Shown piece by piece: positions 21,832 through 41,987 of a DNA stretch of 64,000 nucleotides (within the stretch, counting starts at the first letter, position 1; every line of letters starts with the position of its first letter). The position numbers were made by a program, and so were the translations under genes. Location: assembly GCA_011170375.1 (NCBI GenBank), contig DUEV01000006.1, positions 89,255-153,254 of the forward strand, given 5' to 3'. The notes under the pieces were generated by a model. That model did no database searches. It was not told where the DNA came from and saw only the letters and a list, made by a program, of their open reading frames with translations. This DNA comes from Dehalococcoidia bacterium. Lineage in GTDB: Bacteria > Chloroflexota > Dehalococcoidia > Dehalococcoidales > Fen-1064.

Positions 21832-23295
21832 CTACATCTCCAGTGCTAGTTTATCCATTTCTAGCTGTACTGGCATCGGATACTCACCAGTGAAACAGGC
21901 CATACAAAACAATTCGCGGGGCATATCCACTGCCTTGAGCAACCCCTCAACACTCAGATATCCGAGGGAATCAACTCCGATAAAGCTCCGGATTTCTTCA
22001 ACTCTATTACATGCCGCTATAAGCTCTTGGCGGGTAGCCATGTCCACTCCAAGGAAACAGGGATAGCGAATCGGTGGGGCGCAGACACGCATATGCACCT
22101 CTTTGACTCCAGCTTTCCTCAGCAGGTTAACGACCTTCGGGGTAGTGGTGCCACGAACAATAGTATCGTCAACCACCACTAGCCGCACACCCTCCAGCAT
22201 CCGAGGCAATGGGTTGAACTTCAAACGGACACCAAGGTCCCTTATACGCTGGTCAGGTTCAATAAAGGTACGGCCTACGTAGCGGTTCTTTAACAGGCCT
22301 TCGCAGAATGGAAGGCCGGTCGCACGAGAATATCCGATTCCGGCGGCTGTCGCCGAGTCTGGAACGCCCATCACCATATCAGCCTCGACCGGATGTTCCT
22401 CAGCCAACTGGGCACCCATGGCCTGCCTTACGGGATAAAGCAGCTTGCCGTTGATGATACTATCAGGCCGGGCAAAGTAGATATACTCAAAGATGCACAG
22501 GGCTCTTCTCTCTACCTGCTCTTGACAGCTAGCAAGTCCGCTCCCACTGATGCGAATAATCTCGCCCGGCTCAATTTCGCGAATGAAGTCTGCCCCGATA
22601 TGGTCAAGCGCACAGCTTTCTGAAGCAACAATCCAGCCCCCGTCTATCGTCCCTAGACAGACCGGTCGTATACCCCAGGGGTCACGAACAGCAAACAGGC
22701 TGTCTCTGGTAAGAAGACAGAGGGAAAAGGCCCCCTGCAACCGGTGCATAGCATAGCGAATCCTGCCCAACCAGTCTTTTTCCGAGGAGGAGATTATCAG
22801 GTTGGCGATAACTTCAGTATCTGTAGACGTACGGAAGGTATAGCCTGCCTGCACGAGTTCATCGTGCAGGTGTTCAGCATTAATAATATTGCCGTTATGG
22901 GCGATGGCAATAGCATTATTACCTTGGCCAACAATGAAAGGTTGCACGTTGGATACCCGGCTCGAACCGCGGGTAGAGTAACGATTATGGCCGATAGCAA
23001 TATGTCCGATGAGGCTGCTGAGGGTCTCTTCATCAAATACCTGCGAGACAAGTCCCATATCACCGGCAACCTGCATCCGCTTGCCGTTAGCAACAGCAAT
23101 GCCGGCACTTTCCTGACCACGATGCTGTAGGGCAAAGAGAGCGAAGTACGTGAGCCGAGCTACATCCTCGCCAGGACTGTAAATTCCGAAAACACCGCAA
23201 CTCTCGTGCAAGGTTACCCCTCTTAGCTCATCTCCTGCCGTTTTATTATACAACAACGGGCAAACAGTATCCATCACATTACTGGTCCAGTTCAA
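21832..23295 (-). CDS. purF: Amidophosphoribosyltransferase (glutamine-PRPP amidotransferase)
   Basis: CGVFGIY Ntn-cysteine after a short propeptide, HNGNIINA and VVVDDTIVRGTT PRTase motifs. The exact start is uncertain (TTG at 23295 or an internal ATG/GTG). Confidence 0.9.
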   Translation of the reverse strand: MNWTSNVMDTVCPLLYNKTAGDELRGVTLHESCGVFGIYSPGEDVARLTYFALFALQHRGQESAGIAVANGKRMQVAGDMGLVSQVFDEETLSSLIGHIAIGHNRYSTRGSSRVSNVQPFIVGQGNNAIAIAHNGNIINAEHLHDELVQAGYTFRTSTDTEVIANLIISSSEKDWLGRIRYAMHRLQGAFSLCLLTRDSLFAVRDPWGIRPVCLGTIDGGWIVASESCALDHIGADFIREIEPGEIIRISGSGLASCQEQVERRALCIFEYIYFARPDSIINGKLLYPVRQAMGAQLAEEHPVEADMVMGVPDSATAAGIGYSRATGLPFCEGLLKNRYVGRTFIEPDQRIRDLGVRLKFNPLPRMLEGVRLVVVDDTIVRGTTTPKVVNLLRKAGVKEVHMRVCAPPIRYPCFLGVDMATRQELIAACNRVEEIRSFIGVDSLGYLSVEGLLKAVDMPRELFCMACFTGEYPMPVQLEMDKLALEM

Positions 23296-23336
23296 TCATG
23301 GTTGATAATCTAATACAGATATTGCTAGAAGGGGTA

Positions 23337-23365
23337 TTGACAAATTAGAAAAGTTGTATTATTAT
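23337..23365 (+). promoter_or_regulatory. Strong sigma70-like promoter of the glutamate synthase operon
   Basis: TTGACA (23337-23342), 17-nt spacer, TATTAT (23360-23365). Followed by palindrome CGGCAA-tcgg-TTGCCG at 23374-23389. Confidence 0.6.
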
Positions 23366-23415
23366 ATGGCATACGGCAATCGGTTGCCGCATTCCGTCCC
23401 GCAGGAGTAACTCGA

Positions 23416-23901
23416 ATGGGTAGGGTCTACATCAAAAAAGAGGTGTGTATTGGCTGTCACCTGTGTGAGCTGTATTGTCAGCTACAACACTCTCGGTCAA
23501 CAGACCTGATTAAGGCTTTCAAAAGGGAGTCGATGCGCCCTTCACCCAGACTGAGGGTGGAGGAAAAGGAAGCGGTATCTTTCTCCGTTCGCTGCCAGCA
23601 TTGTGATGAAGCCCCATGTGTTTACGCCTGCCTCTCTGGCGCCCTCACACGCGATAGTAAAACAGGACTGGTTAAAGTAGATGAGGAGAGGTGCATCGGT
23701 TGCTGGACTTGTCTGTTGGTTTGCCCGATCGGTGCAATAAGTCGGGACACAGCAGAAAAGAAGGTGCTGAAATGCGACCTCTGTCAAGGAGAAGATGTTC
23801 CAGCCTGTGTTGCCAATTGCCCTAATGAGGCATTGATATATGTGGAGGTGCAAGATGAGAGTCATAGCACAGAAGGTAAGGTAATTGCCATGATTCAATG
23901 A
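23416..23901 (+). CDS. 4Fe-4S dicluster ferredoxin-like protein (CooF/HybA-like)
   Basis: 161 aa with CIGCHLCELYC, CQHCDEAPC, CIGCWTCLLVCP and CDLC..C..CP cysteine groups. Confidence 0.8.
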   Translation: MGRVYIKKEVCIGCHLCELYCQLQHSRSTDLIKAFKRESMRPSPRLRVEEKEAVSFSVRCQHCDEAPCVYACLSGALTRDSKTGLVKVDEERCIGCWTCLLVCPIGAISRDTAEKKVLKCDLCQGEDVPACVANCPNEALIYVEVQDESHSTEGKVIAMIQ

Positions 23902-23942
23902 GTATAGGGTCGATTGACTAAATCAAACAAAAGGAGGCTTAT

Positions 23943-24312
23943 CGTGTCATACGATTGGGGACCGCACTATATTATTCCTTCGTCAGTAATAACCACCTAT
24001 TCTGGTAATGTTCGGTTGCGAGAGGAATTTGATGACGACCTATTACGTCAGGAATTGAGTGAGCTGGGATTCTCAAGCCCCATCGCAAGGGTGAGTAATC
24101 CATGGTATTACAGGAAGAAAGACTCAACAACCTGGATCAAGATTGGTGAATCCGACGATATGCGCGAGAACTTTCCGGTTACCTGGGATACGCAGAAGCT
24201 TGAGAATGGGCAATACGAAGTAATGGGACTAATGCACGTCTATTTTAAAGCGAATGGCACGATAAAGGCCATTGCCCGGCAAAATGTGGTGGAGGTCACA
24301 GTCAAGAACTAG
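23943..24312 (+). CDS. Hypothetical protein inside the glutamate synthase operon
   Basis: I prefer the GTG at 23943, 6 nt after AAGGAGG, to the ORF-track start at 23914. No recognisable motif; predicted beta-rich. Confidence 0.4.
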
Positions 24313-24486
24313 ACCTAGAAAACACGACATCATTGTCATAGTTGGCTACAGTGCTGGCAACCATAGCAGTGTGGCGAAGGCTCTTGATAAGAGTAGTGAG
24401 CTCAGCCTTAGGTTCTACGACACCTCTAGCAACGTTACTTTAGGTGTAAGGCTTAGTAGTCCATAGGCGGATTGGGCAGGTAAATA

Positions 24487-25854
24487 ATGACAAAGGCAGA
24501 GAGAGTTAAATACCTGATTATCGGAAACTCCGCTGGAGGTATTGGGGCAGCGGAAGCTATCCGTGAGGTGGACAGGGCCGGGGCAATAGCCATCGTTTCC
24601 AGCGAGCCTTACCACGCCTACTCGCGTCCATTGATATCACAGTATCTAGTCGAAGGGCGCCCTCTGCAGAGAATGATGTTTCGACCGGCTGATTTCTACA
24701 AAGAGAAAAATATTCAGGCTATTCTGGGCCAGGAAGTAACGGGTCTTAATATAGACAAACATAACGTTAAGCTCGACGACGGTAGAAGCATAATCTGGGA
24801 GAAGCTGTTGCTGGCTACTGGTAGTTCACCCATTGTACCTAATATAGAAGGTATTGGTCTGAAAGGAGTCTTCACCTTCACCACGCGTGATGATGCCAGG
24901 GCAATCTATAAGTTCCTGAACCAATATCATACAGAGGTAAGGGCTGTGGTCATTGGCGGTGGTCTCATCGGGATAAGTGCTACTGAGGCACTGGTGAAGA
25001 GAGGGGTTAAAGTCACTATCGTCGAGATGAAGGAACGAATTTTGAACACCATCCTCGACGAAGAAGCATCATTTCTCGTGGAGGCATCTTTGAATGAGCT
25101 GGGGGTTGAAATCATCAACGGTCATATCGTGAGTAGGATTACTAGCTTCTTACCTGGTAGGGCTACTGGTATAGCCCTTGATAACGACCGACCGATACCC
25201 TGCGAGATGGTGATCGTAGCTGTCGGTGTGCAGCCACGCACCAAGATAGTTTCAGAAACCGGGATAAGGATAGACCGTGGTATATTAGTTGACCACCATA
25301 TGGCCACATCCAGCCCTGACGTCTATGCCTGCGGGGACGTAGCCGAGGCCTACGACTTTATCTACGACGAGAACCGGCTTACCCCAATCTGGCCTAATGC
25401 CTACATAGGGGGCAGAATCGCCGGCTTCAACATGGCTGGGCTGCCGACTGAATATCAGGGCGGAACATCAATGAATGCTATGAAATATTTTGGACTGGCT
25501 ATTGTTTCAGCGGGCATATTGACTCCACCTGATGACAGCTACGAGGTAATTAGTGAGAAACATGGTCATGTCTATAAAAAGGTTGTTCTTAAAAACGGAC
25601 TAATAGTGGGCGTGATTTTTAGCGGCGACATTGAGAAATCGGGCATTATATACAATCTCATGAAAAACAGAGTAAACGTCGATACCTTTAAGCAAGCTCT
25701 CATCGCTGACGATTTCGGCCTTATCTCTCTCCCTGAGGAAATCTGGCGACCACTGCTGGAACATACTTCGCCAGTAACACCTTCCCTGGCAACCTCAGAT
25801 AAGCAGCCTGAAAAGATGGCTATTGGAGATTTGGGATTGGTGTCTGGGAGGTAA
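24487..25854 (+). CDS. FAD/NAD(P)-dependent pyridine nucleotide-disulfide-type oxidoreductase (probable electron-input subunit)
   Basis: 455 aa. Two Rossmann dinucleotide motifs (YLIIGNSAGGIGAAEA; AVVIGGGLIGISA) and ACGDVA. Confidence 0.8.
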   Translation: MTKAERVKYLIIGNSAGGIGAAEAIREVDRAGAIAIVSSEPYHAYSRPLISQYLVEGRPLQRMMFRPADFYKEKNIQAILGQEVTGLNIDKHNVKLDDGRSIIWEKLLLATGSSPIVPNIEGIGLKGVFTFTTRDDARAIYKFLNQYHTEVRAVVIGGGLIGISATEALVKRGVKVTIVEMKERILNTILDEEASFLVEASLNELGVEIINGHIVSRITSFLPGRATGIALDNDRPIPCEMVIVAVGVQPRTKIVSETGIRIDRGILVDHHMATSSPDVYACGDVAEAYDFIYDENRLTPIWPNAYIGGRIAGFNMAGLPTEYQGGTSMNAMKYFGLAIVSAGILTPPDDSYEVISEKHGHVYKKVVLKNGLIVGVIFSGDIEKSGIIYNLMKNRVNVDTFKQALIADDFGLISLPEEIWRPLLEHTSPVTPSLATSDKQPEKMAIGDLGLVSGR

Positions 25855-25859: not shown

Positions 25860-26996
25860 ATGAAAGATATTAAACACGTGAACAACCCTTACAACGATGA
25901 TAAGGTCATTGATGCCTGCTCCATATTCGGGGCCATGGATGCCTCAGGCAAGAGGTTTTCTGGAGACGGTGTTATCAGGGCAATTGTCAACATGCATGAC
26001 CGTGGTAACGGGCTGGGTGGGGGATTCGCTATCTATGGTCTATATCCCGATTATGCTGACCTCTACGCCCTTCACGTAATGTACCTTAGCCCTGAGGGTA
26101 AGCAAGAGACAGAGGCTTTGCTAAAGGCAAACTTCAACATCATTGAAAAAGAAGAGGTGCCCACAAGGCAAACACCAATGATTGCCAATCCACCATTGGT
26201 GTGGCGCTACTTCCTTGAGGTGGATCACCGTAAGCCTGAACAAGAATCTGAGGATGACTACGTTGTGGACAGGGTGATGACCATAAATACCGGATTGCGC
26301 GATAGCTTCGTCTTCTCCAGTGGTAAGGATATGGCTGTGTTCAAGGGTGTTGGTTATCCTGAGGAGATAGCTGATTACTTCTGCCTGGAGCAATATGAGG
26401 GCTACCTTTGGACAGCACATGGCCGTTTCCCTACCAATACCCCGGGCTGGTGGGGCGGGGCCCACCCGTTTTGTATCCTAGACTGGACAGTTGTTCATAA
26501 TGGTGAAATTTCTTCATATGGAATAAACCAGCGTTACCTGGGGCAATTCGGTTATCACTGCACGATGCAGACTGATACTGAGGTGGTAGCATACGCTGTT
26601 GACCTGCTGATGCGCAAGCATAACCTGCCGATAGAGATAGTGGCCAAGATACTGGCACCACCTTTTTGGAGTGACATTGAGCGCATGTCGCCAGAAGAAC
26701 AGAAGCTCATGCTGACTCTGCGGCAGGTGTATGCCAGTCTACTCTTAAACGGTCCGTTCACAGTAATCATTGCTCATCATGGTGAGATGATCGGACTGAC
26801 CGACCGCATAAGGTTACGGCCACTCACGGTTGGAGAAAAGGGTAGCATGCTCTACCTTTCATCAGAAGAGTCGGCCATTCGTCTTATATGCCCTGAGCTG
26901 GATAAGACCTGGATTCCTGTGGGCGGTGAACCCGTCGTGGGTACGTTGCGGGCACCGACCCAGCCACAACCCGTGGCTGCCGGGGAGAAGGTATGA
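25860..26996 (+). CDS. Glutamate synthase glutamine-amidotransferase (class II) domain protein, archaeal-type split GltS
   Basis: 378 aa. CSIFGAMD Ntn-Cys after a leader, HGRFPTNT and VHNGEISSYG motifs. Confidence 0.8.
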   Translation: MKDIKHVNNPYNDDKVIDACSIFGAMDASGKRFSGDGVIRAIVNMHDRGNGLGGGFAIYGLYPDYADLYALHVMYLSPEGKQETEALLKANFNIIEKEEVPTRQTPMIANPPLVWRYFLEVDHRKPEQESEDDYVVDRVMTINTGLRDSFVFSSGKDMAVFKGVGYPEEIADYFCLEQYEGYLWTAHGRFPTNTPGWWGGAHPFCILDWTVVHNGEISSYGINQRYLGQFGYHCTMQTDTEVVAYAVDLLMRKHNLPIEIVAKILAPPFWSDIERMSPEEQKLMLTLRQVYASLLLNGPFTVIIAHHGEMIGLTDRIRLRPLTVGEKGSMLYLSSEESAIRLICPELDKTWIPVGGEPVVGTLRAPTQPQPVAAGEKV

Positions 26997-26997: not shown

Positions 26998-27108
26998 ATG
27001 CTGACGAAAAGAGTTATTCCCTGCCTTGATGTGAGAAACGGTCGAGTTGTAAATAATGCTGGCGGAGAGGAAGAAGTGTTAAAACGGGGAATCTCAATAA
27101 GGGTCTAG
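26998..27108 (+). pseudogene. 36-codon ORF whose first 18 residues are a HisF N-terminus (gene relic or coupled leader ORF)
   Basis: MLTKRVIPCLDVRNGRVV versus the HisF consensus [20 protein letters not shown]. Resemblance stops after residue 18. The ATG is 1 nt after the upstream TGA. Confidence 0.55.
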
Positions 27109-27119
27109 GAGAAAAGGCA

Positions 27120-28625
27120 GTGAAGACCTATCTGACACCCAAATTTCTAGTACAACGAGACCCTGAACGCTGTATCCAGTGTCAGGTATGTGTCAATCAG
27201 TGCACTTTCGACACTCACTACTATGATGTCGAAGACGATGAGGTGAGAAGTCATGATGAGAACTGCATTGGCTGTCTCCGCTGTGTTCTCTTCTGCCCAA
27301 CCCGAGCGCTAACTATCAGACAAAACCACCTCGACTACAGAGACAACTACAATTGGCGCCCCGAGGTGATTGAAGATATCGTTAAGCAGGCGGAAACTGG
27401 CGGGGTACTCCTCACGGGCATGGGCAATGATAAAGGCCAGCGCATCTACTGGGACCATCTGGTTCTCAACGCCAGTCAGGTAACCAACCCGTCTATTGAC
27501 CCACTACGCGAGCCAATGGAGCTCACCACATATCTGGGGCGAAAACCTGATCGGATAGAACTCGACTCGGAATCGTCCACTTTGAAGACAGAATTAGCTC
27601 CTCAGGTAAGTCTGGAAGTCCCGGTAATGTTTGCTGCCATGTCTTATGGTGCGGTCAGTCTTAACGTACATGAATCTCTGGCTAGAGCTGCCACCGAGAT
27701 GGGCACTCTTTGGAACACTGGTGAGGGAGGGCTCCACTCCAAGTTATATAAGTATGGAAACAATACTATTGTCCAAGTAGCTTCAGGGCGCTTCGGTGTC
27801 CATGCTGAATATCTGGACGTAGCTAGAGTAATCGAAATCAAGATTGGGCAAGGAGCAAAGCCTGGAATTGGTGGACACCTCCCAGGGGAGAAGGTGAGCA
27901 GCGAGGTATCGCTAACGCGGATGATTCCCCAAGGAACTGATGCACTGTCACCGGCTCCACAGCACGATATTTACTCAATTGAAGACCTGGCACAGCTTAT
28001 CTACGCTTTAAAAGAGGCAACAAACTACAGCAAGCCGATATCGGTTAAAATCGCCGCTGTTCATAACTCGGCTGCTATTGCCAGTGGCATGGTGAGAGCC
28101 GGCGCCGACATTATTGTTCTAGATGGACTAAGGGGGTCTACAGGCGCTGCTCCCAAGATTATCCGCGACAATGTTGGCATTCCCATTGAGATGGCCTTGG
28201 CCTCGGTAGATAGCCGACTGAGGCAGGAGGGAATACGCAACCAGGCCTCTGTCGTCGTCTCAGGAGGCATAAGGAATAGCGGTGACGTGGCTAAGGCAAT
28301 CGCCCTCGGTGCTGATGCCGTCTATATCGGGACAGCAGCTCTCATTGCCCTAGGCTGTCATGTCTGCCAGCAGTGTCATACAGGGAAATGCGCTTGGGGC
28401 ATTTGCACCACTGACCTTCGCCTGACTAAGAGGGTTAACCCAGACATTGGTGCCCGCAGACTGACCAACCTGCTTCGAGGTTGGAGCATTGAACTCAAGG
28501 ACATACTGGGTGGGCTTGGAGTTAACGCTCTAGAGAGTTTGAGGGGGAATCGCCTGCATTTAAGAGGCGTTGGGTTGACTGATACCGAGCTCGATATCTT
28601 GGGAGTAAGGATGGCGGGGAGCTGA
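27120..28625 (+). CDS. Glutamate synthase FMN/synthase domain with N-terminal 2x[4Fe-4S] ferredoxin domain
   Basis: 501 aa. CIQCQVCVNQC / CIGCLRCVLFCP, then IEIKIGQGAKPGIGGHLPGEKV and GGTGAAP-like motifs typical of GltB domain 2. Confidence 0.9.
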   Translation: MKTYLTPKFLVQRDPERCIQCQVCVNQCTFDTHYYDVEDDEVRSHDENCIGCLRCVLFCPTRALTIRQNHLDYRDNYNWRPEVIEDIVKQAETGGVLLTGMGNDKGQRIYWDHLVLNASQVTNPSIDPLREPMELTTYLGRKPDRIELDSESSTLKTELAPQVSLEVPVMFAAMSYGAVSLNVHESLARAATEMGTLWNTGEGGLHSKLYKYGNNTIVQVASGRFGVHAEYLDVARVIEIKIGQGAKPGIGGHLPGEKVSSEVSLTRMIPQGTDALSPAPQHDIYSIEDLAQLIYALKEATNYSKPISVKIAAVHNSAAIASGMVRAGADIIVLDGLRGSTGAAPKIIRDNVGIPIEMALASVDSRLRQEGIRNQASVVVSGGIRNSGDVAKAIALGADAVYIGTAALIALGCHVCQQCHTGKCAWGICTTDLRLTKRVNPDIGARRLTNLLRGWSIELKDILGGLGVNALESLRGNRLHLRGVGLTDTELDILGVRMAGS

Positions 28626-28627: not shown

Positions 28628-29386
28628 ATGGGGAGATGGAGAAACTCGACAGCGAAAATAGATGCTGCCGGAATTTACTATCGAGAACTCAATGCCAAGC
28701 TGAGAGGCGTTGTCTCGAATGGCACCAAAAAAATAGAGCTCCACAATATCCATGGGCAGCGGTATATCGGCACCGACCTGGATAAGCCGGTGGAGCTCGA
28801 GATATTTGGAACTCCTGGTAATGACTTGGGAGCGTTTATGAACGGACCAAGGATTATTGTGCATGGCAATGCCCAAGATGGCTGCGGTAACACGATGGAT
28901 AGCGGTGAGATAATCATACATGGTCACGCTGGAGATATCGTTGGGCTATCGGCCAGAGGCGGGAAAATTTTTGTCCGAGACGATGTCGGCTACCGGGCAG
29001 GTATCCATATGAAGGAGTACCAGGACAAGAAGCCCGTGCTCGTCATCGGCGGAACCGCACAGGACTTTCTTGGCGAATACATGGCCGGAGGCATCTTAAT
29101 TCTGCTGGGTCTGAATCTAGCCGAAGGTGAACATCATAAATCCAGATTTATTGGTACCGGAATGCATGGCGGCGTCATCTACCTGAGGGGAAATGTCGAG
29201 AATTACCAGCTTGGTAAAGAAGTCGGTGTTACCGACCTGGATGAAGAGGAGCGCCACATCCTGAAGCAGTATGTTGATGAGTTTGCCGAACACTTTAACT
29301 ACCAACCAGATGAAATACTGGATCAGGAGTTCCTCGAGCTCTACCCTCGCTGGCTCCGACCCTATGGAAGGCTCTACGCATATTGA
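28628..29386 (+). CDS. Glutamate synthase GXGXG (alpha-subunit C-terminal) domain protein
   Basis: 252 aa. Repeated G-x-G beta-helix motifs (HGNAQDGCGNTMDSGEIIIHGHAGDIVG..GGKIFVRDDVGYRAG). Confidence 0.85.
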   Translation: MGRWRNSTAKIDAAGIYYRELNAKLRGVVSNGTKKIELHNIHGQRYIGTDLDKPVELEIFGTPGNDLGAFMNGPRIIVHGNAQDGCGNTMDSGEIIIHGHAGDIVGLSARGGKIFVRDDVGYRAGIHMKEYQDKKPVLVIGGTAQDFLGEYMAGGILILLGLNLAEGEHHKSRFIGTGMHGGVIYLRGNVENYQLGKEVGVTDLDEEERHILKQYVDEFAEHFNYQPDEILDQEFLELYPRWLRPYGRLYAY

Positions 29387-31710: not shown

Positions 31711-33281
<1,571 letters not shown>

Positions 33282-33370
33282 GCAAGTTGCAGGGGTAAAC
33301 ATGCAGATAAGAAATTGATGATGAACAGTAATATTCCGACCAAACGAATAATCGCGAATTGGAGGCAATA

Positions 33371-36549: not shown

Positions 36550-37644
36550 ATGAGTAAAAAGGCATTTTTAGCCTTAGAAGATGGCTCGGTCCATCACGGA
36601 TTCACCTTTGGTGCGGAGGTTGATACCTTCGGCGAGGTAGTATTCTGCACTGCCATGACTGGTTACCAGGAGATGCTGACTGACCCCTCCTATGCTGGGC
36701 AGATTCTGGTTCCCACTTATCCCCTTATCGGCAACTACGGTATCAATGAGCAGGATATTGAGTCGGCCAAAATACAGGTCAGGGGGTTTGTTGTTAGAGA
36801 GGTGTGTCTTGAGCCCAGCCACTATCTGAGTCAGAAGACAATTCACCAGCATCTGGCCGAAAGTGGCATCCCCGGAATCCATGGGGTGGATACCCGCGCA
36901 ATAACTCGCCGACTTCGCTCGAGTGGTGTGATGATGGGCATGATAACCAGCAGCAAGTCTCCGCAACAGGCTCTGGAAGAATTAAAGAAAGTGCCCAGCT
37001 ATGGCTCCATCGATTTCGTCAAGCAGGTGACTACTCCAACCTCCTATCAGTGGCAGCCGGAGGACTCGGCGCCACTATACAACATAGTTGTGCTGGACTG
37101 TGGTCTGAAATATAACATCCTTCGCATCCTGAACCGCCTGGAGTGTAGCGTCACCGTTGTGCCCTGTACTATGTCTGCTGGAGAAATCCTCTCTCTAGAG
37201 CCAGATGGTATTCTCCTCTCGCCGGGCCCCGGCGACCCCGACATACCGAAGGTAAACTACGTCATTGACACCGTCAAGCAGCTCGTCGGTAAAAAGCCGA
37301 TAATAGGCATCTGCTTCGGCCAACAGCTCATTCACCGTGCCTTCGGTGGCTGCCATTTCAAGCTCAAGTTTGGCCACCGCGGTGGTAATCACCCTGTCCG
37401 TGAACTGGCTACCGGCAGAATCCATATCACGGCGCAAAATCATGGTTACGCCGTTGACCCAGATACTCTCGGAGAAGACCTGGAAATCACTCACATAAAC
37501 ATGAATGACAATACAGTAGAAGGCCTAAAGCACAGGGAGTTACCCATATTCGCCATCCAGTATCACTCCGAGGCTTCACCAGGTCCCTGGGACAATACCT
37601 ATCTCTTCGACAAATTTATTGAGATGGTAAAGGAGGCGAAATGA
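36550..37644 (+). CDS. carA: Carbamoyl-phosphate synthase small (glutaminase) subunit
   Basis: 364 aa. GICFGQQL triad Cys, [10 protein letters not shown]. Confidence 0.92.
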
Positions 37645-37660: not shown

Positions 37661-40600
37661 TTGAAGCCCTCTAAGGTCTTAATAATCGGTTCTGGGCCTA
37701 TCATCATCGGACAGGCAGCGGAGTTTGACTATGCTGGTACTCAGGCGTGCCGGGCAATGCGTGAAGAAGGCATTACCTCAGTGCTGGTGAACTCAAATCC
37801 CGCCACCATCATGACTGACGAGGACATTGCCGACATCGTCTATATTGAGCCGCTGACCGTGGATGTACTGGCCCGCATCATTGAGCGAGAGCGTCCCGAT
37901 GGATTGTTACCTACGCTGGGCGGACAGACTGGCCTTAACCTGGCTGTAGCCTTAGCTGACACTGGTATTCTTAACAAATACAATGTCAGAAGTCTAGGGA
38001 CACCAATTCAAACGATAAGAAACGCCGAGGACCGTGAGCTGTTCAAGCGGATGCTGATTGATATCGGTGAGCCGGTACCGGCGAGCGCCGCCGTGAACAG
38101 TTTAGGAGCGGCCAGGGAGGTTGCCAGTAATATTGGCCTACCCTTGATAATCCGTCCGGCTTACACTCTGGGTGGAACCGGCGGAGGCATGGCTTGCAGC
38201 TGGGAGGAACTGGAGATAGCCGTTAGTAGAGGATTGGCAGCCAGCCCCATACATCAGGTGCTGCTTGAGGAATCCGTAGCAGGCTGGAAAGAGATTGAGT
38301 ATGAGGTGATGCGGGACAGTGCTGACAACTGCATCACCGTCTGCAATATGGAGAACCTTGACCCGATGGGAGTTCATACCGGCGATAGCATAGTCGTTGC
38401 TCCCAGCCAGACGCTGAACAACAAGGAATACCAGATGCTGCGAACGTCGAGCCTTAAGATTATCCGGGCGCTGGGCATCGAAGGTGGCTGTAATGTCCAG
38501 TTCGCCCTTGACCCCAAGAGCGAAAAATATTATGTGATTGAGGTCAATCCCCGGGTAAGCCGTAGCTCAGCCCTGGCCAGCAAGGCCACTGGTTACCCTA
38601 TTGCCCGTGTTGCGGCTAAAATAGCCGTGGGTAAGAGACTGGATCAAATCCCAAACCAGGTAACGGGAAAAACAATGGCCTCCTTTGAGCCGGCGCTCGA
38701 TTATGTGGTGGTCAAGATTCCCCGATGGACTTTTGATAAATTTACCTCCAGTGACCGCTCTATTGGCACCCAGATGAAAGCCACCGGCGAAGTAATGGCC
38801 ATTGACCGCTGTTTCGAAGCTGCTCTGCAGAAGGCAGTACGTTCTCTGGAATTCGGCAGGAGAACGCTCCTTTGGGAAGACCCCAAGTGGAAATCATCAA
38901 CCGATATCAATTCCTATCCCCTACAGCCCAACGAACTGAGACTGTGGGCCATAATGGCTGCCTTAAGAAGGGGAATAAGTGTGCAGGCAATAAGCGAGCA
39001 CACCACGATTGACCGGTGGTTTATAGATAGGATGCAAAATATTGTCGGTATGGAGAAACAATTCCTAACTCAGCCACTAACCCCCGAATTCTTGTGGCAG
39101 ATAAAGCGGCTCGGCTTTTCTGACGAGCAAATAGGAGTCCTATTAGGTGAACCTTACGAGCATATAAGACTGTTACGTCGTATTTGGAATATTCAACCTG
39201 TCTATAAGATTGTTGATACCTGCGCCGCCGAATTTGATGCTGCCACGCCGTACTACTATAGCGCCTACGAGCAGGAGGATGAGGCACAGCCTGATAAGAG
39301 GAAGAAAGCCATAGTCATCGGCAGTGGGCCTATTCGCATTGGCCAAGGAATAGAGTTCGATTATTGTTGTGTCCATGCCGCGTTTGCCCTGCGGGACGAG
39401 GGGTATGAGACGATAATGATTAACTGTAACCCGGAAACAGTCTCCACCGACTTTGACACCTCGGATAAGCTATATTTCGAACCGGTGACGGTTGAAGACG
39501 TTTTGAGTATCTACGAAGAGGAGAACCCCGTCGGCGTAATCGTTCAATTTGGCGGTCAGACACCACTTAATATCGCGGCGGAACTTGAGAAAGCTGGCGT
39601 TTCCATACTGGGCACATCGGTCAACTCGATAGACATTGCCTCTGACCGGGGCCGGTTCAGCCAGATAATGAAGAAATGCAGCATCCCCATGCCAGAATCG
39701 GGTACTGCTAGTAGCCTTAAAGAGGCCCTGGTTTTAGCGGAGCGCATCGGCTACCCACTTATAGTTCGCCCGTCATACGTCCTTGGCGGACGCGGTATGG
39801 AGATAGTACATGACGAAGAAGAACTAATAAGGTATGTGAGTGCAGCCGTCGTGGTAACGCCCGACCGGCCGATCTTGATTGATAAGTTTCTGGAGAATGC
39901 TATCGAGGCCGAGGCGGATGCCATTTCCGACGGGAATGATACTTTTGTGCCGGCAGTCATGGAGCATATCGAATTTGCTGGTGTCCATTCCGGCGATTCA
40001 GCCTGTGTGATTCCGTCCGCAAGCATACCAGCTAAGCATCTCACCACAATTCATGATTACACGAAGAGAATCGCCCGCAAACTTCATGTTGTCGGCCTGA
40101 TGAATGTCCAATATGCTATAGCTAAAGACGTTGTGTATGTTCTGGAGGCCAATCCCCGGGCATCACGCACCGTACCCATCGTCTCTAAGGTGTGTGATAT
40201 TCCCATGGTACATCTGGCAACTCAGGTTATGCTGGGCAGGAAGCTAGCTGAGCTTGACCTCAAGTCACGAAGGATTCCCTACTTCGGAGTTAAAGAGGCA
40301 GTTTTTCCGTTTCACATGTTTCCCGAAGTCGACCCGCTGCTCAGACCGGAGATGAAGTCCACGGGCGAAGTTCTGGGGATGGCCGATTCCTTTGGTCTGG
40401 CATTCTGGAAAGCGCAGGAGGCAGTTTCAATTCTCCCGACTGAGGGCACTGTGCTTATCACTGTCTCGGAACGTGACCGGCAAGCAGCAGGCAAGGTAGC
40501 CAGTCAGTTTGCTGACCTGGGGTTCAAGATTAAGGCTACGGCTGGCACCCATGCTTTTCTAACTAGCCTGGGCATAGCCTCAGAACCGATACTGAAGGAG

Positions 40601-40861
40601 CATGAGGGTAGGCCTAATATCACGGATGCCATAAGCAACAGGGAAGTTCAGCTAGTAATAAACACGCCGGCGGGGAAACTAAGTGCACATGATGACTCGT
40701 ACATCCGAAAGGCTGCTATAAAGTACAAGGTGCCATATATCACCACGCTAGCAGCCGCCATGGCAGCCTCCAAGGGAATAATAGCTTACCGTGAGGGTAA
40801 ATCAGATGTCAGGTCGCTGCAAAGTTACCACGACGACGTGAAGGAAATGCAAGAGAGCTGA
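37661..40861 (+). CDS. carB: Carbamoyl-phosphate synthase large subunit
   Basis: 1066 aa. Duplicated ATP-grasp halves ([17 protein letters not shown] / [17 protein letters not shown]) and an MGS-like tail. TTG start. Confidence 0.95.
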
Positions 40862-40945
40862 TCCTCCCCTCCGAATATTATCAGATACATTGATTGAGGC
40901 AGTAGGTGGAATTCGACGTGCTACTCACAACTTTCGTAACAGGCA

Positions 40946-40954
40946 TGCTATAAT
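40946..40954 (+). promoter_or_regulatory. Extended -10 promoter box TGCTATAAT upstream of nrpR
   Basis: GCATGCTATAAT at 40943-40954, 38 nt before the TTG start of nrpR. Confidence 0.5.
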
Positions 40955-40991
40955 AACCTGAAGATTATCCAAAGAAACAAGGAAGCTTCTG

Positions 40992-41987
40992 TTGGTACAA
41001 GGTTCTAGCTCCGAAACAGAGATAAAGATAATAGCCATTCTTAAGGTCTTGAGTGAGTCCTCTGAGCCACTCGGGTCAATTACTATTGCCCGTAAACTGG
41101 AGCAGGAGGGAGTTTTCCTGAGTGAGAGAGCAATCAGATATCACCTGAGAATAACAGATGAGCGTGGTTTTACCCAGCCGGGCGGTCGGGATGGCAGAAT
41201 GATTACTCCAGAAGGGCGGCAAGAGGTTAAGGACGCACTGGCACCGGAGCAGCTTGGTTTTGTGCGTGATAAGCTCGAGATGTTAGCTTTCCAAACCACA
41301 TTCGACCCACAAAAGAGAACCGGCCTGTTATCTGTAAACACCTCCTTAATTGACAAGAATAATTTCAAAAAGGCATTATCAGCCATGAGGGATGCATTCA
41401 AGGCCGGAATTTGTGTCAGCGACTTAGTGGCCACCGCGTCTGAAGGAGAAAGGCTTGGTTCGGTAATCGTGCCCAGTGGGAAAATCGGCCTGGCTACCGT
41501 CTGCAGCGTGGTGATATATGGGGTACTTCTGAAGGCAGGTGTGCCTACAGAATACAGGTTTGGAGGATTGCTCGAGGTTAGAAATTCAAAACCACGGCGC
41601 TTTGTAGCCATAATTGACTATCAGGGTACATCCCTCGACCCCTCTGAACAATTCATACGTGGCAACATGACGAGCGTTAATGAAGTTGCAAGGACAGGGA
41701 ATGGTAAGGTATTAGGTGTGTTCCGTACTCTGCCAGCACCGGCGAAAGAAATCGTCGAGGAGAAAATCGCTTTGCTCAAGGAAGCCGGCATCGGTGGGGT
41801 CTATGCTCTGGGCAATACCAGCGAGTCGATTTGTCGTGTTCCAGTGACTTTAAATCGGTTTGGTATCGTTCAACTCGGTGGTCTTAATCCAGTGGCGGCA
41901 GCCGTTGAGGCGGGAATCGAGATAGAAAACATAGCTGAGAGCGGGCTAATTGATTTTCAGCAGCTTCAACCTGTTTGGCAGATTTAG
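40992..41987 (+). CDS. nrpR: NrpR-like nitrogen repressor (winged HTH plus one NrpR/DUF128 domain)
   Basis: 331 aa. N-terminus IKIIAILKVL..SEPLGSITIARKLEQEGVFLSERAIRYHLRITDERGF..GRMITPEG resembles methanogen NrpR as I remember it. Single-domain length. Confidence 0.7.
   Translation: MVQGSSSETEIKIIAILKVLSESSEPLGSITIARKLEQEGVFLSERAIRYHLRITDERGFTQPGGRDGRMITPEGRQEVKDALAPEQLGFVRDKLEMLAFQTTFDPQKRTGLLSVNTSLIDKNNFKKALSAMRDAFKAGICVSDLVATASEGERLGSVIVPSGKIGLATVCSVVIYGVLLKAGVPTEYRFGGLLEVRNSKPRRFVAIIDYQGTSLDPSEQFIRGNMTSVNEVARTGNGKVLGVFRTLPAPAKEIVEEKIALLKEAGIGGVYALGNTSESICRVPVTLNRFGIVQLGGLNPVAAAVEAGIEIENIAESGLIDFQQLQPVWQI

What the first reader, a model, noticed from the sequence alone, without database searches (positions are those of the whole stretch)
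21832..41987. A 20-kb supercluster gathers most of the usual glutamine-amide-using pathways with glutamine synthesis and ammonium uptake
Seen: consecutive genes encode:
- PurF (Gln-PRPP amidotransferase)
- a split glutamate synthase with its own ferredoxin and flavoprotein
- AsnB (Gln-hydrolysing)
- Amt, PII and GlnA
- Gln-dependent NadE (with CN-hydrolase domain)
- CarA/CarB

Two regulators flank or interrupt the set: a pseudo-receiver OmpR-type protein and an NrpR-like protein. A HisF N-terminal relic at 26998 adds a trace of yet another glutamine amidotransferase system (HisHF). Every enzyme gene in the interval either makes glutamine or spends its amide nitrogen.

Established: amt-glnB-glnA linkage is common. 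Linkage of purF, asnB, nadE, carAB and gltS to it is not something I know as a standard arrangement.

Inference: this is a co-regulated glutamine-economy regulon assembled in one locus, possibly transferred as a unit (see the tRNA bracket).
Basis: partly seen in the sequence, partly recalled or inferred. Interest (0 to 1): 0.65.

Follow-up and report, generated by a model that had tools for sequence, protein, structure and literature searches.

The report
Glutamine-enzyme supercluster with two nitrogen regulators
A Dehalococcoidia bacterium keeps glutamine synthesis, ammonium uptake and five unrelated glutamine-consuming enzymes in one 20-kb block with two nitrogen regulators; relatives have the same block with other glutamine-consuming enzymes swapped in, so this is a lineage-wide design that I did not find described.

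Summary
Window 21832-41987 encodes PurF, a ferredoxin, a flavoprotein, a three-gene split glutamate synthase, AsnB, Amt, PII, GlnA, glutamine-dependent NadE, CarA/CarB, an OmpR-type pseudo-receiver regulator and an NrpR homologue.

- **HisHF relics.** The HisF relic is real: relatives carry a full hisF at that exact place. A hisH relic also exists.
- **Conservation.** I examined 27 loci of at least 8 kb, counting the window. The core is Fdx-HisH-flavoprotein-GltS/HisF-(NrpR)-regulator-Amt-PII-GlnA-NadE-NrpR. AsnB, CarA(B), PdxT, PurF, PyrG and PurL/Q come and go. Nine glutamine amidotransferase systems appear in all.
- **Conserved DNA signals.** A palindrome, CGGCAA-N4-TTGCCG, sits just after a near-consensus promoter before fdx and is a candidate NrpR operator. 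Before amt there are four direct 5-mers at 11-bp spacing, GTAAC-n6-TTAAC-n6-GTAAT-n6-GAAAC. These match the actinobacterial GlnR box.

I infer a two-tier, nitrogen-status-controlled super-operon. No expression data exist.

The "tRNA bracket" is partly real. tRNA-Met at 9785 has four partial 3' copies at 42.3-49.3 kb, but there is no integrase gene, and relatives' synteny argues against a recent transfer of the cluster as a unit.

Verdict: a new variant of a known kind, with moderately high interest.

The parts
21832..23295 (-). purF, glutamine-PRPP amidotransferase. It is divergent from the fdx operon and shares its 120-bp control region.
   Evidence: TIGR01134 scores 516.6 bits against a 350 cut-off. 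GATase_6/7 and Pribosyltran domains are found. The catalytic Cys lies in ...HESCGVFG. purF sits inside the operon in L170/L171 and near it in L098.
23337..23365 (+). Sigma-70-type promoter of the fdx-gltS unit (TTGACA-17-TATTAT).
   Evidence: It matches 11 of 12 positions, the best match in 21000-40900. The same TTGACA/-10 layout is conserved before fdx in L091, L094, L103, L110, L112, L116, L120 and L126.
23374..23389 (.). Palindrome CGGCAATCGGTTGCCG overlapping the predicted transcription start. It is the candidate NrpR operator; that assignment is inferred.
   Evidence: It is a perfect match in the window. With at most 1 mismatch it lies 29-56 bp before the fdx start in the window and in all 10 other loci that include that region. 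It also occurs before the regulator or hisH in differently arranged loci.
23416..23901 (+). Poly-ferredoxin (4Fe-4S dicluster protein), first gene of the operon. It is the presumed electron carrier to GltS.
   Evidence: Fer4_11 and related domains are found. The gene is conserved at the head of the cluster in 14 of 27 loci, many of which are truncated on that side.
23944..24312 (+). Conserved 122-aa protein of unknown function ('Unk122'), a recurrent member of the cluster.
   Evidence: It has no Pfam or NCBIfam hit. There are 1219 homologues at 52-86% identity, all named hypothetical or misnamed. It lies after fdx or after glnA in 8 of 27 loci. The AlphaFold2 model has pLDDT 82.7 and is a beta-sandwich. 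Foldseek against the PDB gave no significant match.
24332..24445 (+). hisH relic. The N-terminal ~20 codons and C-terminal ~19 codons of a deleted class-I glutaminase gene lie in the spacer before the flavoprotein gene.
   Evidence: The spacer translates as IVIVGYSAGNHSSVAKAL.... tblastn with HisH from L010, L091, L103 and L110 matches residues 1-20 (8-27 for L010; E 0.001-0.005) and 182-200 for L091/L103 (E 0.017) within a 270-nt target. A full hisH occupies this position in 17 of 27 loci. The evidence is weaker than for hisF.
24487..25854 (+). FAD/NAD(P) pyridine-nucleotide-disulfide oxidoreductase with a rubredoxin-reductase C-terminal domain. It is the presumed NAD(P)H-side electron input for GltS.
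   Evidence: Pyr_redox_2 E 2e-52 and Rubredoxin_C. The best NCBIfam similarity is PadH-type, below its cut-off. It always lies next to the GltS genes.
25860..26996 (+). Glutamate synthase, glutaminase (class-II GATase) subunit.
   Evidence: GATase_2. The Cys lies in DACSIFG. Relatives are 67-83% identical.
26998..27119 (+). hisF relic. The 5' ~55-75 nt and 3' ~50 nt of hisF remain; the 36-codon ORF reads MLTKRVIPCLDVRNGRVV...
   Evidence: Translation is. A full His_biosynth gene (E about 1e-80) lies at the same place in L009 and L010 and in 21 of 27 loci. blastn aligns the window on both sides of a ~670-bp gap relative to L099 and L089.
27120..28625 (+). Glutamate synthase FMN subunit with an N-terminal 2x[4Fe-4S] domain.
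   Evidence: Glu_synthase E 2e-138 plus Fer4_10.
28628..29386 (+). Glutamate synthase GXGXG subunit.
   Evidence: PF01493 E 4e-32.
29404..30084 (+). GlnR-type orphan OmpR/PhoB regulator with a degenerate receiver. It is the proposed activator of the amt unit.
   Evidence: Trans_reg_C E 3e-29. The phospho-pocket residues are replaced. Among the best PDB matches are 8hih and 8hml, which are actinobacterial GlnR. The Pfam GlnR_1st domain passes its cut-off in the L173 orthologue, is sub-threshold in three others and is absent in the window protein. No histidine kinase gene lies in the cluster.
30089..31612 (+). asnB, glutamine-hydrolysing asparagine synthetase.
   Evidence: NF006949 scores 596.9 bits against a 499 cut-off. 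The N-terminal (M)CGI nucleophile is present. The same position is occupied in L089, L091 and L173.
31636..31673 (+). Array of four direct 5-mers at 11-bp period, GTAAC-n6-TTAAC-n6-GAAAT-n6-GAAAC. A -10-like TAGGCT follows. It is a GlnR-box-type activator site before amt.
   Evidence: It is the only match in the window, with 0 expected in 100 shuffles. The array is conserved before amt in 37 distinct sequences and before glnA in 5. It matches the published GlnR box gTnAc-n6-GaAAc-n6-GtnAC-n6-GAAAc (PMC10704036).
31708..32946 (+). amt, ammonium transporter.
   Evidence: PF00909 E 5e-130.
32943..33281 (+). PII (GlnK/GlnB-type) signal protein; it overlaps amt by 4 nt.
   Evidence: PF00543 E 1e-28.
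33359..34714 (+). glnA, type-I glutamine synthetase. Gene callers on same-species contigs start it at about 33371, giving 447 aa.
   Evidence: Gln-synt_N and Gln-synt_C.
34731..36488 (+). nadE, glutamine-dependent NAD+ synthetase (nitrilase-type glutaminase domain + synthetase).
   Evidence: CN_hydrolase and NAD_synthase. It follows glnA in 15 of 27 loci.
36550..37644 (+). carA, carbamoyl-phosphate synthase glutaminase subunit.
   Evidence: CPSase_sm_chain and GATase. The GICFGQQ Cys is present. The same position is occupied in L169 and L110. carA occurs without carB in L170 and L173.
37661..40861 (+). carB, carbamoyl-phosphate synthase large subunit.
   Evidence: CPSase_L domains and MGS.
40992..41987 (+). 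nrpR homologue (winged helix + one NRD domain), with its own TGnTATAAT promoter. It is the proposed 2-oxoglutarate-responsive repressor.
   Evidence: HTH_12 E 6e-18 and NRD1_2 E 2e-78. PDB 3nek, the M. jannaschii MJ0159 NRD domain, matches at E 4e-23. It closes the cluster in L091, L094, L103, L112, L119, L126, L169, L170, L172 and L175. The conserved extended -10 is shown.
42280..42364 (+). Direct partial copy of tRNA-Met (from the anticodon loop to the 3' end, plus downstream sequence). It is an att-like scar about 300 bp after nrpR. It is context, not part of the operon.
   Evidence: blastn gives 97.6% identity over 42 nt to 9816-9857. The repeat finder family D1 has 3 copies of 85 nt and D2 has 5 copies of 27 nt.

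Best explanation
This is one instance of a nitrogen-assimilation super-operon that is conserved across Dehalococcoidia. Its organising principle is glutamine.

**Core and variable parts**
- The core holds ammonium uptake (Amt and PII), glutamine synthesis (GlnA) and a ferredoxin/flavoprotein-linked split glutamate synthase.
- The glutaminase-bearing genes of otherwise unrelated pathways are recruited next to the core and exchanged over time.
- This genome carries PurF, AsnB, NadE and CarAB, plus the deleted remains of HisH/HisF.
- Relatives carry HisHF, PdxT, PyrG, PurLQ, or CarA alone.

**Proposed control (inferred from sequence, not measured)**
1. A strong sigma-70 promoter before fdx is shut by a repressor bound to the palindrome over the transcription start. 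The repressor is most likely the NrpR homologue, which is released when 2-oxoglutarate is high, that is, when nitrogen is short.
2. This first unit, fdx to asnB, includes the gene of a GlnR-type orphan regulator.
3. That regulator then binds four head-to-tail boxes that replace the -35 region before amt. It activates the second unit, amt-PII-glnA-nadE-carAB.
4. nrpR has its own promoter.

**Net effect.** When glutamine is scarce, the cell raises ammonium capture, glutamine synthesis and the enzymes that compete for the amide nitrogen, all together. It needs only two regulatory sites in a small genome with few regulators.
For: **Shown directly**
- Gene identities and intact catalytic residues.
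- All genes from fdx to carB lie on one strand, with gaps of -4 to 174 nt. The two largest gaps are the hisH and hisF deletion scars. No terminator-like site falls in any spacer.
- The core order recurs in 27 loci (counting the window) at 40-93% protein identity. These include genome-scale contigs of 1.22 and 1.39 Mb.
- Nine glutamine-amidotransferase systems appear across these loci. Twenty-five of the 27 hold two or more.
- Glutaminase subunits occur without their synthase partners: PdxT in 7 loci, and CarA alone in L170 and L173.
- Outside the group such linkage is rare.
- The palindrome lies before fdx in the window and in all 10 other loci that include that region, always 4-8 nt after the -10.
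- The four-box array lies before amt or glnA in at least 42 distinct sequences. It occurs once in the window against 0 expected.

**From the literature**
- The box equals the actinobacterial GlnR box. GlnR activates as four head-to-tail protomers on four sites (PMC10704036; PMC10235972).
- NrpR homologues in Dehalococcoides were already noted as archaeal-type nif/glnA repressors (PMC1852104).

**Regulator identity**
- The pseudo-receiver residues are replaced.
- PDB matches include GlnR.
- The Pfam GlnR_1st domain passes its cut-off in one orthologue.
- The NrpR NRD domain matches 3nek.
Against: - No expression, binding or metabolite data exist for any of these organisms, so the operon structure and both regulator-site assignments are inferences.
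- The published methanogen NrpR operator, as I recall it, is GGAA-N6-TTCC. It is absent from the interval. The palindrome found here is different, so NrpR binding to it is a guess based on co-occurrence.
- The palindrome lies at the start of the transcript, and some copies keep pairing through G-T changes. It could therefore act as an RNA hairpin instead (read by eye).
- The window's own regulator does not hit Pfam GlnR_1st. Its nearest PDB match, RegX3, is not GlnR.
- purF is on the opposite strand and has no detected box.
- No GlnR-type box was found before nadE, carA or nrpR in the window. Their control therefore depends on read-through from amt.
- I could not test whether the clustered genes are each genome's only copies.
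Confidence: 0.7

Rival explanations
1. The cluster, or the 32-kb segment holding it, reached this genome as a mobile island. It would have integrated into tRNA-Met by site-specific recombination. This does not exclude the best explanation.
For: - An intact tRNA-Met lies at 9785-9857.
- Direct copies of its 3' part lie at 42280, 43323, 44165 and 49247. The first starts at the anticodon loop and the third at the T-loop, as in classical att sites.
- G+C is 0.45-0.52 from 10 to 50 kb, against 0.53-0.59 in both flanks. The drop starts right after the tRNA.
- The left flank holds core genes, uvrC and a GTPase.
- Synteny with the closest relative, L169, ends right after nrpR.
- Relatives show no tRNA or tRNA fragment there.
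Against: - No integrase or recombinase gene occurs anywhere in the 64-kb window.
- The bracket encloses 12 kb of unrelated metabolic genes as well: an aldehyde ferredoxin oxidoreductase, a Liv-type transporter and corrinoid methyltransferases.
- The cluster itself is conserved in order across many Dehalococcoidia. In L170 it sits next to the ribosomal-protein/secY operon, a core location.
- The genes are essential housekeeping functions.
- The G+C difference is small.
Confidence: 0.25
2. The conserved palindrome after the fdx promoter is not a protein operator. It is a 5'-leader RNA hairpin, such as an attenuator, a stability element or an unrecognised riboswitch stem.
For: - It begins at about +1 of the predicted transcript in every locus.
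- The arms extend to 10-12 nt in some loci (L091, L110).
- Some differences are G-T compatible (L094, L126).
- All of the above were read.
Against: - Rfam finds no family there or anywhere in the cluster.
- L112 has a C/A mismatch that breaks RNA pairing.
- The central four bases appear in either orientation (GCGG or CCGC), as expected for a DNA palindrome.
- The position over the start site right after a consensus promoter is typical of repressor operators.
- An NrpR gene is always nearby.
Confidence: 0.15
3. The grouping is a by-product of genome streamlining and operon fusion in small genomes. The member genes share no common regulation or functional logic.
For: - Dehalococcoidia genomes are small; the contigs of 1.2-1.4 Mb look near-complete.
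- Unrelated genes do sit inside some versions. Examples are a Na+/H+ exchanger and a class-I aminoacyl-tRNA synthetase in L009, and FtsJ and a hydrolase in L098.
Against: - The recruited genes are overwhelmingly glutamine amidotransferases from different pathways.
- They are often only the glutaminase subunit.
- The rough chance estimate is about 1e-12.
- Conserved regulatory sites sit at the unit heads.
Confidence: 0.07
4. Clustering serves physical coupling rather than transcription. Co-translated GlnA and glutaminase subunits would form a complex that hands glutamine or ammonia directly to the amidotransferases.
For: - Stand-alone glutaminase subunits are preferentially recruited: HisH, PdxT, and CarA without CarB.
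- A conserved small beta-sandwich protein of unknown function travels with the cluster.
Against: - No evidence of interaction exists.
- Known amidotransferases channel ammonia within their own heterodimers.
- The conserved promoters and operators already explain the selection for adjacency.
Confidence: 0.05

Closest known systems
amtB-glnK(-glnA) operons and GS/GOGAT gene clusters of bacteria and archaea
   Same: - amt and PII overlap by 4 nt and are followed by glnA, as in many phyla.
- In the Amt-anchored survey, PII was adjacent in most of the 80 loci. glnA lay within 10 kb in about 15 of the 76 loci outside the group.
- A split GltS lies next to amt/glnA in Gaiellales and Methanoregulaceae loci, and GAT and FMN homologues do in a Methanophagales locus.
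   Different: The operon here is extended on both sides by amidotransferases of purine, asparagine, NAD, arginine/pyrimidine, histidine, vitamin B6 and CTP synthesis. None of the 76 outside loci had purF or carA, and only one had carB.
NrpR regulon of methanogenic Euryarchaeota (Methanococcus maripaludis, Methanosarcina mazei)
   Same: - The regulator has a winged-helix plus NRD architecture and matches the solved NRD domain 3nek.
- It is associated with glnA and amt.
- A palindromic site lies over the transcription start.
- Some loci have two copies or an NRD-only protein, recalling NrpRI/NrpRII.
- Homologues in Dehalococcoides were noted in PMC1852104.
   Different: - The host is bacterial, with sigma-70 promoters.
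- The candidate operator is CGGCAA-N4-TTGCCG, not GGAA-N6-TTCC (my recollection of Lie and Leigh's work; absent from the interval).
- The targets are scattered operons in methanogens but one super-operon here.
- The 2-oxoglutarate response is untested.
Actinobacterial GlnR, an orphan OmpR/PhoB-type global nitrogen regulator, and its GlnR boxes
   Same: - It is an orphan regulator with an atypical, apparently unphosphorylatable receiver.
- Strong PDB matches include GlnR entries 8hih and 8hml.
- Four 5-nt sites with 6-nt spacers, GTAAC/TTAAC/GTAAT/GAAAC, lie before amt and glnA. They match gTnAc-n6-GaAAc (a-b-a-b) and t/gTAAC-n6-Gc/aAAC.
- The four-protomer activation geometry is published (PMC10235972).
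   Different: - The phylum is Chloroflexota, not Actinomycetota.
- The window protein has E in place of the conserved Asp and does not reach the Pfam GlnR_1st model.
- The gene is embedded in the operon it presumably helps to control, downstream of an NrpR-type site.
- Only one box array is seen in the window.
Archaeal-type split glutamate synthase with separate GATase, FMN/Fe-S and GXGXG proteins. From my memory, untested here: it is also found in Thermotoga next to an NADH-oxidase-like flavoprotein and an Fe-S protein.
   Same: - Three separate genes are present, and the FMN subunit has an N-terminal 2x[4Fe-4S] domain.
- A ferredoxin and a pyridine-nucleotide-disulfide flavoprotein accompany them in place of a GltD small subunit.
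   Different: In most relatives, hisH and hisF are interleaved between these genes: fdx-hisH-flavoprotein-GAT-hisF-FMN-GXGXG. PdxT or CarA is sometimes interleaved as well.
tRNA- and tmRNA-targeted genomic islands, for example the ssrA islands of Dehalococcoides mccartyi (my recollection of McMurdie et al. 2011)
   Same: - An intact tRNA gene lies at one end.
- Several direct partial copies of its 3' end lie downstream.
- The enclosed DNA has lower G+C.
   Different: - No integrase gene is present.
- The cargo is core nitrogen metabolism, not accessory genes.
- The cluster is syntenic in relatives that lack the repeats.

Membership tests
NrpR-family nitrogen repressor | N-terminal winged-helix DNA-binding domain followed by one or two NRD regulatory domains | tested here: met
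   PF08461 E 6e-18 covers residues 14-78. PF01995 E 2e-78 covers residues 88-326. PDB 3nek, the MJ0159 NRD domain, matches at E 4e-23.
NrpR-family nitrogen repressor | Binds a palindromic operator of the GGAA-N6-TTCC type at nitrogen-regulated promoters (operator sequence from my memory of the M. maripaludis work) | tested here: not met
   No GGAA-N6-TTCC or GGAA-N5-7-TTCC occurs in 20-46 kb. A different conserved palindrome, CGGCAA-N4-TTGCCG, overlaps the fdx transcription start. Its binding by NrpR is only inferred.
NrpR-family nitrogen repressor | DNA binding relieved by 2-oxoglutarate | not testable with these tools
   This needs purified protein and gel-shift or footprinting with and without 2-oxoglutarate.
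Actinobacterial-type GlnR (orphan OmpR/PhoB regulator) | OmpR/PhoB-type C-terminal winged-helix domain | tested here: met
   Trans_reg_C E 3e-29. Full-length similarity to MtrA, PhoB and RegX3.
Actinobacterial-type GlnR (orphan OmpR/PhoB regulator) | Atypical receiver domain, with no cognate kinase gene next to it | tested here: met
   D10 is Q, D53 is E, T83 is V and K105 is S relative to PhoB. Response_reg is below its cut-off. No histidine kinase domain appears among the annotated genes of the cluster-bearing loci examined.
Actinobacterial-type GlnR (orphan OmpR/PhoB regulator) | GlnR-specific N-terminal domain (Pfam PF21695, GlnR_1st) | tested here: inconclusive
   The L173 orthologue scores 30.1 bits against a 27 cut-off. 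L012 scores 19.6, L174 17.9 and L010 13.5. The window protein and L009 have no hit.
Actinobacterial-type GlnR (orphan OmpR/PhoB regulator) | Target promoters carry GlnR boxes: 5-nt a and b sites separated by 6 nt, often a-b-a-b, before amtB and glnA | tested here: met
   Window 31636-31673 reads GTAAC-n6-TTAAC-n6-GAAAT-n6-GAAAC, with 0 expected. The array is conserved before amt (37 sequences) and glnA (5). Binding itself was not tested.
Split (archaeal-type) glutamate synthase | Separate genes for the class-II glutaminase, the FMN/Fe-S synthase domain and the GXGXG domain | tested here: met
   PF00310, PF01645 + Fer4 and PF01493 fall on three consecutive ORFs. The nucleophile Cys is present. 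Enzyme activity and electron donor were not tested.
Glutamine-dependent amidotransferases (PurF, AsnB, NadE, CarA) | Family-level match above the curated cut-off, and an intact glutaminase nucleophile | tested here: met
   PurF scores 517 against 350, and AsnB 597 against 499. NadE has CN_hydrolase + NAD_synthase, and CarA has CPSase_sm_chain + GATase.
Single operon / super-operon | Same strand, short spacers and no internal terminators | tested here: met
   The internal promoter before amt implies at least two units.
Single operon / super-operon | Co-transcription and a common response to nitrogen status | not testable with these tools
   This needs RNA-seq or RT-PCR across the junctions.
tRNA-integrated genomic island | Intact tRNA gene at one end and a direct repeat of its 3' part at the other | tested here: met
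   tRNA-Met lies at 9785-9857. Repeats lie at 42280, 43323, 44165 and 49247.
tRNA-integrated genomic island | Integrase/recombinase gene next to the att site | tested here: not met
   Pfam found no integrase domain in any ORF I scanned. These were the larger ORFs in 1-21 kb and 42-64 kb, and a few smaller ones there were not scanned.
tRNA-integrated genomic island | Atypical composition and absence from the same site in relatives | tested here: inconclusive
   G+C is 0.45-0.52 inside against 0.53-0.59 outside. Relatives have the cluster without the repeats, but their flanks are mostly unavailable.

The most novel reading that the evidence does not exclude
Dehalococcoidia run their whole glutamine economy from one plastic super-operon. 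It is governed by a hybrid cascade: an archaeal-type NrpR repressor that senses 2-oxoglutarate sits on top of an actinobacterial-type GlnR activator.

Selection would act specifically on the glutaminase subunits. HisH, PdxT and CarA are recruited without, or apart from, their synthase partners. Their dosage would therefore be set jointly with glutamine synthetase.

This would extend the GlnR/GlnR-box system beyond Actinomycetota. It would also give the first defined bacterial NrpR operator.
Probability: 0.35. Interest if true: 0.75.

Novelty: new variant of a known kind. Interest (0 to 1): 0.62.

Why it matters
**Regulators in an unexpected host.** Nitrogen control in Chloroflexota is essentially uncharted. 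NrpR has been studied only in methanogens, and GlnR-type regulators only in actinobacteria.
- Both appear here, each with a conserved and testable DNA site, in front of one gene block.
- This gives a concrete regulatory model for a large, mostly uncultured, environmentally abundant class that includes the organohalide-respiring Dehalococcoides.

**How a regulon can grow.** The cluster is an unusually clean natural case of a regulon expanding by adjacency.
- Genes from at least nine pathways share only their use of glutamine's amide nitrogen.
- They are repeatedly moved into, and lost from, the same locus.

**Practical uses.**
- It allows a direct test of whether amidotransferase dosage is tuned to glutamine supply.
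- It provides markers for reading nitrogen status in metatranscriptomes: the two motifs and a conserved 122-aa unknown protein.

Tried and rejected
- **Methanogen NrpR operator.** I searched for GGAA-N6-TTCC and variants. None lies in 20-46 kb.
- **RNA families.** Rfam at gathering threshold over the whole window finds only tRNA-Met. No glutamine riboswitch or other leader appears.
- **tRNA-like fragments.** Permissive Rfam scans of the two tRNA-like spots gave only noise at 21.5-21.9 kb. At 42234-42329 they gave a weak tmRNA/tRNA-like hit (12.5 bits). That hit proved to be a copy of the tRNA-Met 3' part. The minus-strand tRNA-like piece at 21759-21840 appears only with relaxed ARAGORN and is poor.
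- **Unk132 as the hisH relic.** Rejected: it shows no similarity to HisH and is a conserved family of its own. The hisH relic lies in the spacer after it.
- **Second palindrome copy.** The perfect copy at 14580 lies inside a binding-protein gene and is taken as chance. Five matches with up to 2 mismatches were found against 2.5 expected.
- **Further GlnR-type boxes in the window.** A two-box pattern found none beyond the amt site.
- **Unk122 fold.** The fold search gave only generic Ig-like sandwiches.
- **Integrase search.** Nothing was found among the ORFs scanned across the window.
- **Literature.** Searches were run for NrpR + Dehalococcoides, for DET locus tags, for amidotransferase cluster + NrpR, and for Dehalococcoidia nitrogen operons. 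They returned only the 2007 note that Dehalococcoides has two NrpR homologues.
- **D. mccartyi.** I could not retrieve a named D. mccartyi locus. L175, a 1.39-Mb contig, may be a close relative, but its identity is unknown.
- **Divergent neighbours of fdx in relatives.** They are unrelated genes: a C_GCAxxG_C_C protein, a transposase, PspC and others. purF is therefore not a conserved left border.

Full report
**1. What is in the interval.**

- purF lies on the minus strand at 21832-23295.
- On the plus strand the order is as follows:
  - a poly-ferredoxin;
  - a 122-aa protein without any family match;
  - a pyridine-nucleotide-disulfide flavoprotein;
  - the three pieces of a split glutamate synthase (GATase_2; Fer4 + Glu_synthase; GXGXG);
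  - an OmpR-type regulator;
  - asnB, amt, PII, glnA and nadE (nitrilase-type glutaminase plus synthetase);
  - carA, carB and an nrpR homologue.

PurF and AsnB pass NCBIfam equivalog cut-offs. The glutaminase nucleophile cysteines are all present. Spacers from fdx to carB run from -4 to 174 nt. No terminator-like site falls in a spacer. The organism is an uncultured Dehalococcoidia bacterium. An identical NrpR protein is on record as 'MAG TPA: Dehalococcoidia bacterium' on a 170-kb contig. Same-species contigs occur in several sediment metagenomes.

**2. The relics.**

The 36-codon ORF at 26998 starts MLTKRVIPCLDVRNGRVV, a HisF N-terminus.
- In L009 and L010 a full-length His_biosynth gene (E about 1e-80) sits between the same two gltS genes. 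It does so in 21 of the 27 loci surveyed.
- Nucleotide alignment to the closest relatives with hisF, L099 and L089, shows that the window keeps the 5' and 3' ends of hisF. About 670 bp in between are missing.
- In relatives, a class-I glutaminase gene, hisH, lies between fdx (or the 122-aa gene) and the flavoprotein gene.
- In the window that spacer translates as IVIVGYSAGNHSSVAKAL... and matches both ends of HisH.

Both genes of a sixth glutamine-amidotransferase system were therefore deleted in this lineage.

**3. How common the arrangement is.**

Three kinds of neighbourhood data were collected:
- 80 Amt-anchored loci from one genome per species;
- 80 metagenome loci anchored on the regulator;
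- contexts of NrpR and Unk122 homologues.

Among 76 Amt loci from other phyla, PII was usually adjacent and glnA was often near. GltS lay nearby in six loci and nadE in two. carB appeared in one locus, weak asnB-like hits in three, and purF and carA in none.

In contrast, 27 Dehalococcoidia-type loci of at least 8 kb, counting the window, share a core. The core is fdx-hisH-flavoprotein-gltS(GAT)-hisF-gltS(FMN)-GXGXG-(nrpR)-regulator-amt-PII-glnA-(Unk122)-nadE-...-nrpR.

The variable slots hold other glutamine amidotransferases:
- asnB after the regulator (window, L089, L091, L173);
- carA-carB before nrpR (window, L169, L110), or divergent nearby (L176);
- pdxT in seven loci;
- in L170/L171, the run nadE-carA-pdxT-purF-pyrG-purS/L-purQ-nrpR;
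- in L173, pdxT and carA inserted among the gltS genes.

Nine amidotransferase systems occur in all. Glutaminase subunits often appear without their synthase partner. Contigs of 1.22 and 1.39 Mb, probably near-complete genomes, carry the core. A rough hypergeometric estimate for eight or more such genes among 17 neighbours is about 1e-12. The grouping is real, is organised around glutamine, and is a property of the lineage rather than of this genome.

**4. Regulatory signals.**

*Before fdx.* The best sigma-70 match in the region, TTGACA-17-TATTAT at 23337-23365, is followed 8 nt later by CGGCAATCGGTTGCCG. The window and all 10 other loci that include the fdx upstream region have the same promoter and the same palindrome 29-56 nt before the start codon. 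The arms sometimes extend to 12 nt. The palindrome also precedes the regulator gene or hisH in differently arranged loci.

*Before amt.* The window has GTAAC-n6-TTAAC-n6-GAAAT-n6-GAAAC at 31636-31673. It is the only match in 64 kb, with none in 100 shuffles.
- The consensus from 63 sequences is GTAACA-n5-TTTAAC-n6-GTAAT-n6-GAAACA, followed by TAnaCT.
- It lies before amt in 37 distinct sequences and before glnA in 5.
- It equals the published actinobacterial GlnR box. The published forms are gTnAc-n6-GaAAc-n6-GtnAC-n6-GAAAc and, in M. smegmatis, t/gTAAC-n6-Gc/aAAC (PMC10704036).
- GlnR is known to activate as four head-to-tail protomers on four sites (PMC10235972).

*Before nrpR.* There is a conserved TGnTATAAT element.

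**5. The regulators.**

The OmpR-type protein lacks the acidic pocket, the Thr and the Lys of a phosphorylatable receiver. It falls below the Response_reg cut-off.
- Its PDB matches are led by RegX3, followed by the GlnR entries 8hih and 8hml.
- Pfam's GlnR N-terminal model passes its cut-off for the L173 orthologue. It is sub-threshold for three others and silent for the window protein.
- No kinase gene lies in the cluster.
- Together with the box array immediately downstream of its gene, I read it as a GlnR-type regulator. Whether it is an orthologue or a convergent relative is open.

The NrpR homologue has the winged helix and one NRD domain and matches the solved M. jannaschii NRD domain. 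Two Dehalococcoides homologues were noted in 2007 as likely archaeal imports (PMC1852104). Several loci here have two copies or an NRD-only protein.

Assigning the palindrome to NrpR rests on position and co-occurrence only. The methanogen operator, as I remember it, is different and is absent here.

**6. Proposed mechanism (inferred).**

- *Nitrogen sufficiency.* NrpR occupies the palindrome and blocks the strong fdx promoter.
- *Nitrogen limitation.* High 2-oxoglutarate releases NrpR. The first unit is then transcribed: electron carriers, glutamate synthase, the GlnR-like regulator and asnB.
- *Second unit.* The GlnR-like protein activates amt-PII-glnA-nadE-carAB from the four-box promoter, which lacks a -35.
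- *Outcome.* Amidotransferases that compete for a shrinking glutamine pool rise together with its supply.
- *purF.* It shares the 120-bp control region with fdx, but no site could be assigned to it.

**7. The tRNA bracket.**

Only one tRNA gene exists in the window, tRNA-Met at 9785-9857. Its 3' part recurs in direct orientation four times:
- at 42280, 45 nt from the anticodon loop with 1 mismatch, plus about 40 nt of similar downstream sequence;
- at 44165, from the T-loop;
- in degenerate form at 43323 and 49247.

G+C drops right after the tRNA and recovers near 50 kb. This looks like a hot spot of serial site-specific integration. However, no integrase is present, and the first segment also holds 12 kb of unrelated genes. 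The cluster is syntenic in relatives that lack the repeats, and in one case it lies beside the ribosomal-protein operon. I rate recent arrival of the cluster as an island at about 0.25.

**8. Comparison and novelty.**

The parts are all known kinds: amt-glnK-glnA operons, split GOGAT, NrpR, GlnR boxes and tRNA att scars. Three things appear new:
- the systematic, plastic recruitment of glutamine amidotransferases of unrelated pathways into one nitrogen operon;
- the coexistence of an archaeal-type and an actinobacterial-type nitrogen regulator in it, each with a recognisable site;
- the presence of GlnR-type boxes outside Actinomycetota.

My full-text searches found no description of these. 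The library lacks many subscription papers, so prior mention, for example in Dehalococcoides transcriptome work, cannot be excluded.

**9. Limits.**

- Everything about regulation is inferred from sequence.
- Taxonomy of the metagenome loci is by similarity only.
- Locus windows of about 20 kb truncate many clusters, so the counts are lower bounds.
- I could not check whether the clustered genes are unique copies.

Noticed in passing
window 9785-9857, 42280-42364, 43323-43349, 44165-44249, 49247-49273: An intact tRNA-Met is followed by four direct partial copies of its 3' end, with similar downstream sequence. Together they bound a 10-49 kb stretch of lower G+C (0.45-0.52 against 0.53-0.59). 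It looks like an integration hot spot with decayed tandem islets. No integrase gene occurs anywhere in the window.
   Followed up: partly
window 24332-24445: The spacer before the flavoprotein gene holds the N- and C-terminal remains of a deleted hisH (IVIVGYSAGNHSSVAKAL...).
   Followed up: yes
window 23944-24312 (and L094, L103, L110, L126, L173, L174, L175): A conserved 122-aa protein with no family assignment travels with the nitrogen cluster. It has 1219 homologues at 52-86% identity. Its predicted fold is an Ig-like beta-sandwich. Some 150-aa variants carry a 28-residue internal duplication.
   Followed up: partly
window ~21200-21650 and 21759-21840: Just downstream of purF there is what reads by eye as a fragment of a molybdopterin-oxidoreductase gene with an in-frame TGA. 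Next to it is a poor tRNA-like sequence on the minus strand, found only by relaxed ARAGORN.
   Followed up: no
L003 13540-13836 (same species, JGI 3300028823): One same-species contig has a 98-aa PII gene with no Pfam hit, 42 nt shorter than in the window. This could be a population variant or an assembly error.
   Followed up: no
L170 1267-2372, L173 17249-18352, and pdxT in L012, L116, L132, L170, L172, L173, L176: Glutaminase subunits are recruited without their synthase partners: carA without carB, and pdxT without pdxS. In L170/L171 carA is split into two ORFs, which suggests a frameshift.
   Followed up: partly
L112, L126, L175 (two nrpR copies); L174 16608-17477: Several clusters carry two nrpR genes, one in the middle and one at the end. 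L174 has an NRD-only protein of 289 aa. This recalls the NrpRI/NrpRII split of Methanosarcina.
   Followed up: no
L146, L149, L152, L153, L154: More distant contigs, with a regulator only 38-42% identical, still show nadE followed by the GlnR-like gene. All five carry GlnR-box arrays, and L152-L154 also have amt (with PII and glnA in L153 and L154). This module may reach beyond Dehalococcoidia. The taxonomy of these contigs is unknown.
   Followed up: no
L009 6206-9541 and 13007-17445: One relative has extra genes inserted within the cluster: three amt paralogues, a second divergent glnA (40% identity), a Na+/H+ exchanger and a class-I aminoacyl-tRNA synthetase.
   Followed up: no
window 10729-21148: Several unrelated genes lie between the tRNA-Met and the cluster. 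They include an aldehyde:ferredoxin oxidoreductase, a short-chain dehydrogenase and a Liv-type amino-acid ABC transporter. A corrinoid-protein and URO-D-type methyltransferase pair is also there.
   Followed up: partly
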